This document shows, piece by piece, positions 28,316 to 52,369 of a DNA stretch of 64,000 nt. Positions within the stretch are counted from its first letter, which is position 1. Each line of letters begins with the position of its first letter. A program made the translations under genes and the position numbers. Below the pieces are notes generated by a model, which was given only the letters and a program-made list of their open reading frames with translations, made no database searches and was not told where the DNA came from. Source of the stretch: the human T2T-CHM13v2.0 reference genome, Homo sapiens. The DNA lies in the NCBI RefSeq assembly GCF_009914755.1, contig NC_060946.1, one strand, 5' to 3'.

Positions 28316-28918
<603 letters not shown>

Positions 28919-47939: not shown

Positions 47940-49119
47940 TAGCCAGGATGGTCTCGATCTCCTGACCTCATGATCTGCCCACCTTGGCCTCCCAAAGTTC
48001 TGGGATTACAGGCGTGAGCCACCGTGCCCAGCCCACCCTCTCCTTATTTAAGTGAGTTTCCTGTTAGATGCTCTGCCTGGTGTCCAGTGGTGAGGCTGAA
48101 GGATGCAGCACAGATGGGCCCAGGATGTTGCTGGGGCAGTCAGTGTGCCAAGCTCCAGCCTGGGGGCGGGAGCCTGGTGCAGAACCCAGGGCCTCTGCCT
48201 GGTGCCTCTGTGAACACCTCCCCCGCCTCAGTTTTCCCCTCTCAGCAGTGAGAAGGACCTTGCCTCAGAAGCACAGCTGTCTTGCATCCGGCGCTCACTT
48301 GCCGGAGTCTCTGGGTTATGGCCTCGGCTTATGAGGAGCAGGTGTTGAGTAGGGGATCCAGGAGCGTCTGGCTTGTATTTGAATCCCTGTCTCACTGTTT
48401 AGCTGCTGCTCACCTCAGGAACCTCTTTTGACCCTGTGAGTTTTGGTTTCCTCATCTGGACAGTAGAAGTGATGATACTGCCCTCATGATATGACCATGA
48501 AAACTAAACTAGATGGTTTGGCAGGATTCTACCTTGTTGAATCCTCAAAGCCCTGAACACAGGGATAATTTGTCGCATTTTACAGAAGGGGTAACTGAGG
48601 CTCAGGAGGATGAGGTGACTTGCTAAAATCATGCTCTTTTGAAGGAAACATCTGGGAAAGTTTGCCTTGGATTTGCCCGAGGTGTGCTTTTATTGCATTT
48701 TAATCTCTGAAAATTGACATTCTCCTCACTCCCCACCTGGTGCAGCTGGCAGCTGGTGCCTCAGGGAGCTGATCCCTCCCTTTGCCAGCACCCCACTCCC
48801 CATGCTGGGCTGGGTGTCCACAGGAGTGGACGGGCCCAGGAATCATGGCTGGGAGGCCTGGGTTCCAGCCTTGCTTTAGCTACCAACTCACCGCGTGACC
48901 TTGGCCAAGTCCCTTGACTTCTCTGGGCCTCGGTTTTCCTCTCTGTAAAATGGGGATGGCCACACCCTCCTTCTGGGGGGATCAGAAGCTTAGCTGAGTT
49001 TAAAAGGAACATGACTGACATCAAAGGAGCCCGGTAAACCAATGGGATCCTGAGTTGATTTCCTTCCCTGTAACGAGTGGCAGGGCCTCCTTCTCCTCAT
49101 GTGGTTTGGGGAGGAGGAA

Positions 49120-49277
49120 CCACATACATTTGGGCTCACACGCACAGCACACAGTCAGTCCACACATGCACAAAACACACTCGTATGCACACATGCACAC
49201 ATACTTGACTCCACGTAAAAGCATGTACACACACACTCCTTCATGCATAAACACACACACACACGCGTGCACACATT
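49120..49277. repeat. Imperfect (CA)n tract
   Basis: cacacatgcac repeats just upstream of the internal promoter. Confidence 0.8.
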
Positions 49278-49339
49278 CAGTTCCCGGGCATCACCTTCTC
49301 TCTTCTTGCCTTCTTGCCGTACAACTGAAAACCCTAAAA

Positions 49340-49663
49340 CCCTCCGTGCCTACGGCTCCCGGGAGGGTGAGGGTCCAGGCAGCTGGGTTCAGAAGGATCC
49401 ACCCCTGGACCCGCCCCACTGGACGAGAAGCCAGAGATGCCCCGGGCGGGGCTCATAGGACCGAGTGGTGGCTTCTCAGTTCCCCAGGCAGCCGTGGCCA
49501 TTAGTGGAGCCGACTGGCTGGTCCCCTGGCCGTGAGCCGGCTTCTGAATGATTTATGCCGCCTTGAACTTGACTCCAGCGTGACAGGAGTGAGAAGAGCC
49601 GCTCCCGCTAGAGGAAAGCTGGAAACCGTACTGTGCTCACCACATAACCTCTGGGTGCTGGAA
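49340..49663 (+). promoter_or_regulatory. Candidate internal promoter/5'UTR for the short isoform
   Basis: Local CpG enrichment in unique sequence; GC boxes CCCGCCCC (~49410) and GGGCGGGG (~49444); TGATTTAT (49549) and TGACAG (49581). Confidence 0.55.
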
Positions 49664-49714
49664 ATGGAGTATTACTACTGCCCCAGCCTGCTGAAGCTCT
49701 TGCGCTACCTCTGG
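49664..49714 (+). CDS. KIAA1671: Predicted alternative first coding exon of a short KIAA1671 isoform (MEYYYCPSLLKLLRYLW)
   Basis: gaaATGg (G at -3 and +4), 17 codons, consensus donor TGG|GTGAGT at 49715 in phase 0, the same phase as the 28663 donor. It follows a CpG/GC-box-rich stretch with no clear polypyrimidine acceptor. Confidence 0.72.
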
Positions 49715-52369
49715 GTGAGTGGCGGGGGGCAGTGCAGGCTCCAGGACGGGGTCACGTCCTTTCCCTCTCCTCCTGCTTCCTGTCAACTTTGCTTTTTGGC
49801 TGTGTCTGGTTAGCAATGTCTCTGTTTTCTTTAAGAAATGGTGGAGGTTACAAGGAAGAGAGAATGTTGGGGAAAAAGGAAACGGGCTTGGTTTGGGAGG
49901 TAGCACAGGTTTGTAGGAAGAGCTGAGACTCCTGAACAGGAATGAAGATCCTGGATCCGATGTGGGCTTTCCTCCAGTCCTCAAGAAAACAGGAAGAACG
50001 AGAACCACTTCAGTGAGTTTTTCAGAAAGCAACATTTATTTGATTTAAAGGACTATTCTTTATTCTGAAATTACATCCCTCTTGCCTCTGTGTGTGTAAG
50101 AATGTCTGTCTTCTATGGGATGAAAATAATAGATTTTGCTTTCCTTTTCCTGAACCTACACAGTGATAGAAGAAGTTGGGACCCCTTCCCCACTAACACT
50201 CACACTGTGCTGTCTCCTCTGGATAACAGAGGAAAAAAACCAGAACATTTTCTGATGAAATGCCAAAGTCAGGGAAGCTGTGCAGAAGTGCTTTGTGAGG
50301 TATAAAATGCTTTCAGGTCTCACTTTGACTTCGCAACTGGTCTGTTTTCTGTGCCTGGGCAAGTTACTTCTCCTCTCTGGGTTTCTGTTTCCTCCTCTGT
50401 GAAATAAGGAGTGGGTGTAGGTGATTCTGGGTTGTGTGACATCCATCAGGGCTCTGGGAATAGAGGGACTTACCGAAGAATTGTCATGGGCTGGTCTCAG
50501 AGTTTTCCAGAATATTTGCCACTGGTTTCAGCACACCCAAAAGGGAAAGTCTTAGGAAATATTATCTTTCCCATTGCTGAGTGTTTGCAAATACTTCAGA
50601 TGCCTTCTTGCCCAGAGAATTTTCCAGCGCTCCTAAAAATACAACTTTAGGAAACATTGCCTTTTAGCCGCCAGTCCCAGAGTGTCTCACCTCCCTCCTG
50701 AGCCCCCCAGAGCAGTGGGGAAACAGGAGATCCCCCCAGTCCATATTGTTCAATCATTGGCCTATGAACATTCTTATATAATAAATGTAAGGCAACATTG
50801 ATTGATTGATTGATTGATGTTTTAATTACAAAAATAATGCATGTGCATGGTAAAAAGATATGGAAAATTCAGACAGGCACAAAGAAGAAAAGAAGTCTCC
50901 AATAATCGTATTTTTGAATTGTGTGGTTTGCAAGGTCTGGATAACCTTGATGTGCCTGGCTGCGTGTTGGGCTCTGGGCTCCATGCTGGAGATGCAGAGA
51001 TGACTAAGATACAGTCCACGGTCCCCAGAACTTAGAGCTTGGCATAGGTGTTGAACTCATTGACAAATGGCTACGATCTCATGTTCATTCAGCACACACT
51101 TACCAGCAGTAGTTTGGAGCTAGCGCCAGATACTTGGAATATAGGAGCAAGACGGCATGGTCCCCTGACCGCATGGAACTTAGTCTGGTGAGAATTTGGA
51201 CTTTGCTCAAGGAACTGAAACAAGGACCATGTATGTGTTAGGATGGGGGTGGTGCACAGTGCCTCAAGGGATATGGTCTCGTTGGGGTGCAGGGGCCAGG
51301 AGAGCCTCCCCAAGGAAGCTGAGTGCTGGAGGATGCCTAGGAGCTGGCAGTTGATGCTAGGGTAGGGGTCCAGGGAAGTGTGTGCCAGGCAGAGGGAACA
51401 GCATGTGCAAAGGGCTGGGGTGGATGTCAGAAAGAGCAAGAGCCCATGGCATGCCCATGGTACATTCCAGGTACTGGCCTAAGCTCATCCTGGCCAGTAG
51501 AGGCTGGGCAGTAATGCCCTCAGCCTCCTAGGGGCAGCTTTGTGGAGTGACAGAGTCACAGCTCCTCACCTGGCTGTGTCCCACCTCTCTAGTGACCTTG
51601 GGCAAGTCTTTTCCTCTCTGGGCCTTGGTTTCCCCATCTGGACCATGAAGAGGTAGGATGAGGCAGTTTAGAAAGTCTTTCCTAGATGTGATAATGAGAG
51701 AGATTTTCATTTGTCCGCTGCTTTCTGTGGGTGACCAGGTCCTGGGGGAGTGAGGAGCCACATAGGCCCACCGCTGGTTTTGCAAATTACCCACAATTTC
51801 TCTGTCTCTCTGAGTCACTGAAGACAGCCTGGCACACGTGTTAACAAGACCGGGATCTTAGATTAGCCCAGGTGTCTGCACTTCTAAACTGGAAACTCTT
51901 GCTTGACCTCTCAAGGAAGCTTGGGAATGTGGACCTGGATTCTGAGGAAGCCCCGTGGCCTTGGGAAGTCCATTTCAGCTTCCCAAACTTCAGCTTCCTC
52001 ATCTGCAAAGCGAGGCCCCGCTGCCTTCCTGATTTGCTTCTTGGGGCAATTCCTTTGAATTCTCTAGCTCATTTCTGAAACCTAGAAGCTGCTCCCAGAA
52101 TGTCAGTTCCTCCTGCTTCCCAGGAGGCCACCGTCAGATTTGGTGACCAGCTAACCAGGAATAATTGCAGAGAGCCAGGTGGAGGTGCTCGCTCCCCTGC
52201 CACTCCTGTAGCTTCGCATAGCTTGAACATGCGTTCATCCATCATTTCTTCAGCATGGGCCCCTCCTCACTGCCCCTGGGCCCTGGTAATGTTGCCCATT
52301 CACTAGGGTCTTCCCTGGTGAATGACCCCCTTCCCTTCTGCATTCTTTGTCCTGTTATTCTACCTTTTT

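What the first reader, a model, noticed from the sequence alone, without database searches (positions are those of the whole stretch)
49340..49720. Internal promoter and 17-codon first exon that would replace ~1500 disordered residues with a Cys/amphipathic peptide
Seen: CpG/GC-box patch, strong-context ATG at 49664, MEYYYCPSLLKLLRYLW, then TGG|GTGAGT in phase 0, the phase needed to join the exon after the 28663 donor. Inference: a short isoform keeping only the C-terminus. L9/L10/L12/L13/L16/W17 form one helix face and K11/R14 the other, next to Cys6. This fits an S-acylated membrane-targeting helix, and LLKLL is also an LxxLL box. One gene could thus make a giant cytoskeletal scaffold and a small membrane-anchored form. 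I recall a short KIAA1671 transcript being annotated but cannot verify this; I know of no function for this peptide.
Basis: partly seen in the sequence, partly recalled or inferred. Interest (0 to 1): 0.8.

Follow-up and report, generated by a model that had tools for sequence, protein, structure and literature searches.

The report
Conserved alternative first exon of KIAA1671
This is a real, already annotated internal start site of the human KIAA1671 gene whose tiny 17-residue coding exon, kept almost unchanged from frogs to humans, gives a short 313-residue protein whose role nobody has studied.

Summary
Window 49455-49714 is a first exon, with no acceptor in front of it. ATG 49664 has a purine at -3 and G at +4 and opens 17 codons, MEYYYCPSLLKLLRYLW. 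The donor is TGG|GTGAGT in phase 0. The long form's CDS up to 28663 is exactly 1510 codons. The next exon, at window 150081, follows a clean AG and starts in phase 0. Joining seven human exons gives an open 313-residue frame.

The hub's RefSeq table already lists this exon, so it is not new. What I add is conservation. 43 protein clusters carry the same N-terminus: placentals, marsupials, birds, turtles, a gecko and a frog. M1, E2, Y5, P7, K11 and W17 are present in 43 of 43, and C6 in 42 of 43. Primate versus bird identity is 14-15 of 17 here, against 108-114 of 170 in the Pfam domain.

Residues 8-17 and the first eight shared residues form one 18-residue amphipathic stretch in every lineage tested. 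The short-isoform reading is supported. The LxxLL reading fails, with the motif in only 21 of 43. S-acylated membrane anchoring stays possible but untested. I found no paper on this isoform.

The parts
49400..49454 (+). Core promoter region just upstream of the annotated start of the alternative first exon. It carries two GC boxes, CCGCCC at 49411-49416 and GGGCGG at 49444-49449.
   Evidence: GC boxes, GC 0.64, CpG o/e about 0.5. One search found no TATA or CCAAT match in 49300-49500. The hub table lists a RefSeq functional element, enhancer 48921-49471, that overlaps it. Promoter activity itself was not tested here.
49455..49714 (+). Alternative first exon (260 nt) of a short KIAA1671 transcript.
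   Evidence: The hub gene table lists it under 'exons of other transcripts 49455-49714'; the two bases before 49455 are TC, so there is no acceptor; the sequence is unique in the genome, with 1 match.
49455..49663 (+). 5' UTR (209 nt) with two short upstream ORFs: 49548-49583 (11 codons plus stop) and 49555-49566 (3 codons plus stop). Both have a weak ATG context.
   Evidence: One search lists the ATGs in the exon and their contexts; the predicted RNA fold is no more stable than shuffles (z 0.11).
49664..49714 (+). Isoform-specific coding part: 17 codons, MEYYYCPSLLKLLRYLW. It comprises a near-invariant MEYYYCP cap and the first 10 residues of an amphipathic stretch.
   Evidence: sequence and ORF. 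(in-frame TAG at 49502). (43 orthologous clusters and per-position conservation). (hydrophobic moment).
49715..49720 (+). Splice donor GTGAGT in phase 0. It pairs with the acceptor of the next KIAA1671 coding exon at window coordinate 150081, outside the window, across an intron of about 100.4 kb.
   Evidence: donor. (acceptor ...tctttgcag|GACCAG in locus L008). (all seven exons joined: 942 nt, 313 residues, no internal stop, AG/GT at every junction).

Best explanation
Window 49455-49714 is a genuine alternative promoter and coding first exon inside intron 6 of KIAA1671.

Transcription starts behind two GC boxes. Translation starts at ATG 49664. The 17 codons splice in phase 0 to the exon at window 150081. 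This gives a 313-residue protein in which 17 isoform-specific residues replace residues 1-1510 of the 1806-residue form. Everything downstream is kept:
- a conserved DQLKQCF...DTDTLV...QYGTW block;
- a Ser-rich linker;
- the region aligned to the CAPZA2-binding part of TNKS1BP1;
- the Tankyrase_bdg_C domain.

The exon has been kept as coding sequence since before amphibians and amniotes split.

Inferred mechanism: the peptide is a targeting module. It has a near-invariant Met-Glu-Tyr-Tyr-Tyr-Cys-Pro cap. By the established NatB rule for Met-Glu this is expected to be N-acetylated with the Met retained; I did not test this. Behind the cap lies an 18-residue amphipathic helix built half from this exon and half from the shared exon. 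The long form and the 391-residue form cannot make this helix, because they have polar, proline-containing sequence before DQLKQCF. The module would send the shared, probably capping-protein-binding, C-terminus to a different place or partner than the long scaffold.

The confidence of 0.85 is for the exon being a real, translated, selected first exon.

My split for what the helix binds:
- a membrane surface, with or without S-acylation: about 0.35;
- a protein partner or self-association: about 0.35;
- other or unknown: the rest.
For: Shown here:
- Exon anatomy and phases.
- An open human 313-residue frame over seven AG/GT-bounded exons. It is 302/313 identical to the gelada 313-residue protein P0123 and 293/296 identical to bonobo in the shared part.
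- The exon is in the RefSeq table supplied by the hub.
- Of 148 short KIAA1671 relatives seen have exactly 17 residues of this type directly before DQLKQCF. One more has an insert after them. Their sources name placentals, marsupials, birds, turtles, a gecko and a frog.
- Per-position counts over 43 clusters: M1, E2, Y5, P7, K11, W17 in 43/43; Y3, Y4, C6 in 42/43; L10, L13, L16 in 41/43; L9 in 39/43. There is no frameshift or stop in any of them.
- Gelada versus birds: 14-15/17 identical here, against 24-26/31 in the next block, 48-52/86 in the linker and 108-114/170 in the Pfam domain.
- P0216 comes from contigs of at most 1648 nt yet spans all coding exons, so it must derive from spliced RNA.
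- Hydrophobic moment of residues 8-25 is 0.60; 0.1% of 5000 shuffles reach it.
- The 18-mer across the junction scores 0.56-0.61 in primate, marsupial, bird, turtle, gecko and frog, with the two halves in phase (9-43 degrees). The long form scores 0.33 and the 391-residue form 0.36.
- Pfam PF15327 lies at residues 135-304 (E 5.6e-71).
- The KIAA1671 region 1617-1711 aligns to the CAPZA2-binding region of TNKS1BP1. That is residues 124-218 of the short form by my own arithmetic. A proteomic KIAA1671-CAPZA2 interaction is also reported (PMC10092648, passages read).
- KIAA1671 appears among alternate-promoter ('AP') splicing events in TCGA stomach cancer (PMC6111597 Table II, passage read). The table does not say which promoter.
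Against: - I saw no human 5'-end, junction-read, ribosome-profiling or peptide evidence. The only human support is the hub's annotation row, which may rest on a predicted model.
- Most orthologous isoforms are computational gene models ('isoform X'). Each is translated from its own genome, however.
- Two upstream ATGs in the 5' UTR could lower translation.
- The promoter is CpG-poor to intermediate, with o/e about 0.5.
- No mouse, rat or fish protein with this N-terminus appeared in the lists I could see.
- Codon-level selection (dN/dS, PhyloCSF) could not be computed, because no orthologous DNA is held.
- The helix is inferred from periodicity only. The gecko has Pro at position 12 and one seal has Gly at 14.
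Confidence: 0.85

Rival explanations
1. Cys6 is S-acylated, and together with the amphipathic helix it anchors the short isoform on the cytosolic face of a membrane. This would make a membrane-bound counterpart of the cytoskeletal long form.
For: - C6 is present in 42 of 43 clusters.
- The single exception, frog P0384, reads MEYYYMPRFLKCLLSCW. It has Cys12 and Cys16, which fall at 40 and 80 degrees on the hydrophobic face. That fits an acylation site that can move.
- The amphipathic moment is conserved across six lineages.
- Over residues 1-27 there are five basic residues (K11, R14, K21, R26, R27) against two acidic ones (E2, D18), read from the sequence.
- Tyr and Trp residues flank the Cys. 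By general knowledge these favour membrane interfaces.
- Proteins that recruit capping protein are often membrane-targeted (passage of PMC10092648, plus recall).
Against: - There is no experimental or predictive test of acylation.
- Mean hydrophobicity of the helix is only about 0, so it is borderline for surface binding.
- Near-invariance of polar or aromatic positions (E2, Y3-Y5, P7, K11) is more than a generic lipid-binding helix needs.
- Full-text search for KIAA1671 with palmitoyl gave 7 papers, 6 listed. I read none of them for this point, and none has either term in its title or abstract.
Confidence: 0.3
2. The N-terminal module is a protein-binding or self-association helix. It might dock on the shared C-terminal domain, dimerise, or bind a partner such as calmodulin. 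It would not be a lipid anchor.
For: - Sequence identity is very high, not just physicochemical conservation: 13 of 17 positions are at least 90% conserved in alignment A1.
- K11 and W17 are invariant.
- The helix is completed by the shared DQLKQCFS, whose C23 and F24 are invariant in A1.
Against: - No partner is known.
- No Pfam or PDB relative exists for the first 45 residues.
- The two N-terminal isoform exons are unrelated to each other.
Confidence: 0.3
3. LLKLL is an LxxLL nuclear-receptor box, so the short form would be a transcriptional co-regulator.
For: The human peptide contains L9-L10-K11-L12-L13 within a predicted helix.
Against: A strict LxxLL is present in only 21 of 43 clusters. 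Position 12 is F, I, S, C or P in the rest, including most birds and all marsupials seen. The conserved features lie elsewhere: MEYYYCP, K11 and W17.
Confidence: 0.03
4. The exon is non-coding or the ORF is an annotation artefact. The transcript could be an enhancer or promoter RNA, or translation could start further downstream.
For: - RefSeq marks 48921-49471 as an enhancer (hub table).
- There are two upstream ATGs.
- I saw no human protein evidence.
- Unspliced read-through gives only a 49-residue ORF.
Against: - 43 clusters from frog to human keep the 17 codons open, of fixed length and ending on the same Trp before the same junction.
- The peptide is more conserved than the Pfam domain.
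- One spliced-RNA-derived contig carries it (P0216).
- There is no Rfam match.
Confidence: 0.05
5. Cys6-Pro7 is a heme-regulatory (CP) motif that makes the short form heme-responsive.
For: The Cys-Pro dipeptide is present in 42 of 43 clusters.
Against: - The frog has Met-Pro.
- The residue after Pro is S, G, R or N. As I recall it, the motif usually has a hydrophobic residue there.
- There are no other supporting data.
Confidence: 0.03

Closest known systems
Annotated short KIAA1671 isoforms of other tetrapods, for example the 313-residue Theropithecus gelada protein (UniRef A0A8D2GH77, P0123) and the 'isoform X3-X8' models
   Same: Same exon, same 17-residue N-terminus, same junction before DQLKQCF and the same C-terminal 296 residues. 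The human reconstruction is 302/313 identical to P0123, and the 17-mer is identical.
   Different: None in kind; these are the orthologues. They are database models without any published functional study that I could find.
Internal-promoter isoforms of giant scaffold genes, such as dystrophin Dp71/Dp140/Dp260
   Same: An internal promoter with its own short first exon yields an N-terminally truncated protein that keeps only the C-terminal interaction module. (PMC7372313: abstract start seen in the listing. That Dp71 has only a few unique N-terminal residues is recalled.)
   Different: This is an unrelated gene. Here the unique peptide is strongly conserved and completes a helix with the shared exon. 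KIAA1671 also has a second short form of 391 residues from another promoter.
N-terminal palmitoylated amphipathic helices of RGS4/RGS16, and the palmitoylated N-termini of GAP-43 and PSD-95 (recalled, not tested)
   Same: An N-proximal Cys next to a basic amphipathic helix at the very start of a soluble protein.
   Different: There is no sequence similarity and no acylation data for KIAA1671. The Tyr triplet and the Cys-Pro pair have no counterpart that I know of.
Capping-protein recruiters (CARMIL, CKIP-1, CD2AP, CapZIP, WASHCAP) and the paralogue TNKS1BP1
   Same: The shared C-terminus aligns with the CAPZA2-binding region of TNKS1BP1, and KIAA1671 co-purifies with CAPZA2 (PMC10092648, passage). 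Such proteins combine a targeting element with a capping-protein-binding element.
   Different: I did not see a canonical CPI motif (consensus recalled) in the alignment. More distant unnamed family members match the profile only from about position 115-145 onward. They therefore lack the DQLKQCF block that completes the helix.

Membership tests
Alternative-promoter coding first exon of KIAA1671 | The exon begins at a transcription start, not at a splice acceptor. | tested here: met
   The two bases before 49455 are TC. 5'-end data (CAGE) cannot be tested here.
Alternative-promoter coding first exon of KIAA1671 | A start codon in usable context, with an in-frame stop upstream. | tested here: met
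   The context is ctggaaATGg. An in-frame TAG lies at 49502 with no ATG between it and 49664. Two weak upstream ATGs close before 49664.
Alternative-promoter coding first exon of KIAA1671 | Donor and downstream acceptor are in compatible phase, giving an open frame to the normal stop. | tested here: met
   TGG|GTGAGT is in phase 0 and the acceptor at window 150081 is in phase 0. The joined frame is 942 nt, 313 residues, with no internal stop.
Alternative-promoter coding first exon of KIAA1671 | The coding sequence is conserved in orthologues. | tested here: met
   43 clusters from frog to primates, with 13 of 17 positions at least 90% conserved. Codon-level dN/dS was not testable.
Alternative-promoter coding first exon of KIAA1671 | Human transcript and protein evidence: junction reads, ribosome footprints or peptide. 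| not testable with these tools
   Only the hub's RefSeq row and an unspecified 'AP' event in PMC6111597.
S-acylated N-terminal amphipathic membrane anchor | A conserved Cys close to the N-terminus. | tested here: met
   C6 is present in 42/43 clusters. The frog has M6 but C12 and C16.
S-acylated N-terminal amphipathic membrane anchor | An adjacent amphipathic, net basic helix. | tested here: met
   The moment is 0.56-0.61 over 18 residues in six lineages, and 0.1% of shuffles reach the observed value. The helix itself is inferred, not modelled.
S-acylated N-terminal amphipathic membrane anchor | Thioester-linked fatty acid on the Cys, and membrane association that depends on it. | not testable with these tools
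   No assay or predictor is available. No literature was found.
LxxLL nuclear-receptor box | Leu at positions 1, 4 and 5 of the motif, conserved in orthologues. | tested here: not met
   A strict LxxLL is present in 21 of 43 clusters. Position 12 is L in 22 of 43.
Heme-regulatory Cys-Pro motif | A conserved Cys-Pro followed by a hydrophobic residue (consensus recalled). | tested here: inconclusive
   Cys-Pro is present in 42/43 clusters, but position 8 is R, G, S or N.
Tankyrase_bdg_C (PF15327) proteins | A match to the Pfam model above the gathering score in the retained C-terminus. | tested here: met
   P0123 residues 135-304: E 5.6e-71, 238.7 bits against a cut-off of 27.

The most novel reading that the evidence does not exclude
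The 17-residue exon encodes a tetrapod-wide, N-acetylated and S-acylated membrane-targeting module of a so far undescribed sequence type: MEYYYCP plus a junction-spanning amphipathic helix. It would convert the capping-protein-binding C-terminus of KIAA1671 into a membrane-anchored regulator of actin barbed ends. One gene would then place the same effector domain at three sites through three promoters.
Probability: 0.2. Interest if true: 0.6.

Novelty: already known. Interest (0 to 1): 0.4.

Why it matters
KIAA1671 has essentially one functional paper, which studied only the N-terminally EGFP-tagged 1806-residue form (PMC10092648; passages read; it contains no occurrence of the word isoform).

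The gene in fact makes at least three proteins that share a 296-residue C-terminus. The 17-residue N-terminus examined here is better conserved than the family's Pfam domain. This has three consequences:
- Antibodies, knock-downs and knock-outs aimed at the shared 3' exons hit all forms.
- N-terminal tags would mask this module.
- Phenotypes or EWAS/GWAS signals in the gene's interior may belong to the short forms.

The exon is a small, clean handle. Deleting 260 bp would give an isoform-specific test of whether the shared C-terminal module acts at a membrane.

Tried and rejected
- **Direct search with the 17-mer.** I went through the long exon and the C-terminal region of returned orthologues instead.
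- **LxxLL.** Rejected on conservation.
- **Exon duplication between the two short-isoform N-termini.** Rejected. BLASTP of P0123 against P0121 aligns only from D18/D96 onward.
- **A paralogous copy of the N-terminal block elsewhere in the human genome.** None found. Only the two KIAA1671 exons match; a third hit has E 8. The exon DNA has one match.
- **Known domain or solved structure for the first 45 residues.**
  - Pfam: 0 families at E up to 10.
  - PDB: only chance antibody hits at E 0.55.
  - The whole protein against PDB gave nothing below E 0.2.
  - The ESM Atlas returned only the protein's own cluster, score 0.83.
- **Non-coding RNA.** No Rfam match in 48800-50300.
- **Structured 5' UTR.** z-score 0.11.
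- **Presence outside tetrapods.**
  - The profile search of 1.84 billion representatives gave 236 hits, of which 150 were listed.
  - None of the 143 new proteins has a YYCP-type N-terminus.
  - The more divergent short ones start with MDYLGDKL/MEYLGDKL instead.
  - This is weak evidence of absence, because there is one representative per 50% cluster and no names.
- **Structure prediction of the 313-residue form from alignment A1.** The tool was not accepting jobs.
- **A first exon-joining script crashed** and was corrected.
- **Supplementary proteomics tables.** I opened none. An N-terminal peptide identification could sit there unseen.
Full report
**What is there.**
- The hub's RefSeq table gives an exon of 'other transcripts' at 49455-49714.
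- The two bases before 49455 are TC, so the exon is not entered by splicing. It is a first exon.
- Two GC boxes lie 44 and 11 bases upstream of the exon start, CCGCCC at 49411 and GGGCGG at 49444.
- GC content is 0.64 there. CpG observed/expected is about 0.5, against 0.2-0.3 in the flanks. This is a weak CpG patch and not an island.
- A RefSeq 'enhancer' element (48921-49471, hub table) overlaps it.
- Inside the exon the frame of interest has a TAG at 49502 and then no ATG until 49664, in the context ctggaaATGg.
- Two earlier ATGs in other frames, at 49548 and 49555, have weak contexts. They open 11- and 3-codon ORFs that close before 49664.
- The 209-nt leader folds no better than shuffled sequence, z 0.11.
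- From 49664, 17 codons give MEYYYCPSLLKLLRYLW. TGG|GTGAGT then ends the exon in phase 0.

**Does it join in frame?**
- The four in-window coding parts of the long transcript sum to 4530 nt. That is 1510 codons without a stop, so the donor at 28663 is in phase 0.
- The window's genome is held. The next coding exon was found with a gorilla orthologue. It begins at window coordinate 150081 behind ...cttgtctttgcag, with GAC CAG CTG in phase 0.
- I joined the 17 codons to the six downstream coding exons by coordinates. The result is 942 nt and 313 residues, with no internal stop and AG/GT at each junction.
- The product is 302/313 identical to the 313-residue gelada protein P0123. Its shared part is 293/296 identical to bonobo.

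**Is it conserved?**
- The 17-mer was too short to search directly.
- The long exon retrieved KIAA1671 orthologues with names: 161 hits, 120 listed.
- Searching residues 1511-1806 of the gorilla protein among shorter proteins gave 305 hits, 120 listed.
- Searching the C-terminus of a frog orthologue gave 229 hits, 120 listed.
- The 148 short proteins in these two lists sort as follows:
  - 72 start with a 95-residue N-terminus, MDYLGDKL...;
  - 42 have exactly 17 residues of the MEYYYCP type directly before DQLKQCF, and one more (a rhea model) has them followed by a 20-residue insert;
  - 4, plus one extended model, have a 13-residue N-terminus, MTYSLWAALIRRI, seen only in sauropsids;
  - the remaining 30 are fragments, long-form pieces or unrelated leaders.
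- None of the 30 looks like a diverged MEYYYCP exon, so my pattern did not hide divergent members.
- The sources name primates, a rhinoceros, bats, seals, a sloth, a mole, a sengi, hystricognath and spalacid rodents, a pika, a shrew, five marsupials, three turtles, a dozen birds, a gecko and the frog Pelobates fuscus.
- Over the 43 clusters (24 distinct 17-mers) the counts are:
  - M1, E2, Y5, P7, K11 and W17 in 43/43;
  - Y3, Y4 and C6 in 42/43;
  - L10, L13 and L16 in 41/43;
  - L9 in 39/43;
  - positions 8, 12, 14 and 15 vary.
- In an alignment of 32 of the 37 members known at that point, the first 48 residues are among the best conserved of the protein. I left out P0203, P0216, P0219, P0235 and P0237 for partial length, N-terminal extensions or inserts.
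- Gelada versus birds shows 14-15/17 identical residues in the peptide, 24-26/31 in the next block, 48-52/86 in the linker and 108-114/170 in the Pfam domain.
- One member, P0216, comes from contigs of at most 1648 nt. It can therefore only be a spliced transcript.
- I saw no mouse, rat or fish member. The profile search of the representative library listed 150 of 236 hits, with 143 new proteins, and showed no further YYCP-type N-terminus. Its divergent short members begin MDYLGDKL/MEYLGDKL. That library has one protein per 50% cluster and no names, so this is weak evidence of absence.
- Codon-level tests were impossible, because no orthologous DNA is held.

**What the peptide looks like.**
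- The amphipathic pattern does not stop at the exon end.
- Residues 8-25 (SLLKLLRYLW|DQLKQCFS) have an Eisenberg moment of 0.60, reached by 0.1% of 5000 shuffles.
- In primate, marsupial, bird, turtle, gecko and frog the ten residues before the junction (0.64-0.70) and the eight after it (0.46-0.54) point the same way, within 9-43 degrees. The 18-residue moment is 0.56-0.61.
- The same shared residues preceded by the long form's ...RRSGPFV score 0.33, and preceded by the 391-residue form's ...SEPPDI they score 0.36. The sauropsid 13-residue leader is hydrophobic but out of phase, at 0.46.
- So this exon uniquely completes a helix whose other half is common to all isoforms. That it is a helix is an inference from periodicity and from the near absence of Pro or Gly at positions 9-17 (one Pro12, one Gly14).
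- The first 45 residues have no Pfam match, no PDB relative and no second copy in the human genome.
- The peptide is unrelated to the N-terminus of the 391-residue form.

**What is kept.**
- The shared 296 residues carry Tankyrase_bdg_C (PF15327, residues 135-304 of the short form, E 5.6e-71).
- The one functional paper on the gene is PMC10092648. I read passages only. It describes the 1806-residue protein as largely disordered. [quoted passage not shown]
- The same paper notes that residues 1617-1711 align with the CAPZA2-binding region of TNKS1BP1, and that CAPZA2 co-purifies with KIAA1671. That region is residues 124-218 of the short form by my arithmetic.
- The paper contains no occurrence of 'isoform' or 'truncat'.
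- KIAA1671 is also listed among afadin-proximal junction proteins (PMC11581034 tables). Its mouse mRNA co-purified with a podocyte actin network (PMC2714980 Table 1).

**How it most likely works.**
- Shown: an annotated first exon with a usable start, correct phases, an open human frame and strong protein-level conservation across tetrapods.
- Inferred: purifying selection on the encoded peptide, and a junction-spanning amphipathic helix behind a fixed Met-Glu-Tyr-Tyr-Tyr-Cys-Pro cap.
- By the established NatB specificity for Met-Glu the Met should be retained and acetylated. I did not test this.
- I read the module as an isoform-specific address label for the shared capping-protein-linked C-terminus.
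- Between a membrane address and a protein address I cannot decide. I give each about one third.
- For a membrane address with acylation:
  - C6 is present in 42/43 clusters;
  - the frog's loss of C6 comes with C12 and C16 on the hydrophobic face;
  - the first 27 residues are net basic;
  - Tyr and Trp residues lie next to the Cys.
- For a protein address: the near-invariance of E2, Y3-5, P7, K11 and W17 is more than lipid binding usually demands.
- The LxxLL idea fails on conservation, 21 of 43.
- A non-coding reading is very unlikely, given 43 open, length-fixed orthologues.

**Known or new.**
- The exon and the short isoform are in RefSeq (hub table) and in many species' gene models. As a feature it is already known.
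- I found nothing in print about it:
  - 0 papers hold the peptide string;
  - 0 hold Q9BY89-2;
  - of 31 papers with KIAA1671 and 'isoform' (25 listed), I opened three, and none discusses KIAA1671 isoforms;
  - the single paper with 'alternative promoter' only lists the gene among 'AP' events in stomach cancer (PMC6111597 Table II).
- The searches cover open full texts only. I opened no supplements.
- The closest analogy in principle is the set of internal-promoter dystrophin isoforms (PMC7372313, abstract start in the listing).

**Verdict.**
The feature is ordinary in kind and already annotated.
- It carries an unusually well-conserved and unstudied 17-residue peptide that offers a clean experimental handle.

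Noticed in passing
outside the window: window coordinates 91460-91792 (G000:C22:25573460-25573792, locus L012): A third KIAA1671 start. This exon encodes the 95-residue N-terminus MDYLGDKLTVAQTHMTQWMGTVRRSFQEALNLV... of a 391-residue isoform. It was the commonest short form in the lists (72 of 148). Unnamed divergent representatives also carry it, so it may be older than the 17-residue exon. It lies at the 5' end of the antisense lncRNA KIAA1671-AS1 (81701..91974, minus strand, hub table), which suggests a bidirectional promoter.
   Followed up: partly
proteins P0392, P0395, P0240, P0226, P0223 (birds and tuatara; no window coordinates): Sauropsids have a further alternative N-terminus of 13 residues (MTYSLWAALIRRI or similar) joined to the same DQLKQCF exon. 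It is hydrophobic, but its moment is out of phase with the shared half-helix. I did not look for a human counterpart.
   Followed up: partly
protein P0237 (Rhea pennata model): This model has the 17-residue N-terminus followed by a 20-residue hydrophobic insert (ATVSALLLAFSGLTLYHRTA) before DQLKQCF. It is either an extra small exon in this bird or a gene-model error.
   Followed up: no
protein P0003 (gorilla isoform X4) versus human loci L011 and L014: The last 26 residues of this gorilla model differ from those of human, bonobo and another gorilla entry. A weak match with stops lies at G000:C22:25648093-25648383. This suggests an alternative 3' terminal exon.
   Followed up: no
window 49137-49275: A CA-rich, imperfectly repeated stretch sits 180-320 bp upstream of the alternative exon. 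It has a 26-bp unit in 2.4 copies at 49137-49199 and an ATGCACAC unit in 2.2 copies, and it runs into cacacacacacacgcgtgcacaca.
   Followed up: no
alignment A1, residues 18-48 and 136-175 of the short form: The shared block DQLKQCF.R...KDTDTLV.E..SQYGTW is nearly invariant from frog to human but lies outside the Pfam domain. The basic stretch SALKTRVQLSKRSRRRAP at the start of PF15327 is also highly conserved. Neither has a described function that I found.
   Followed up: no
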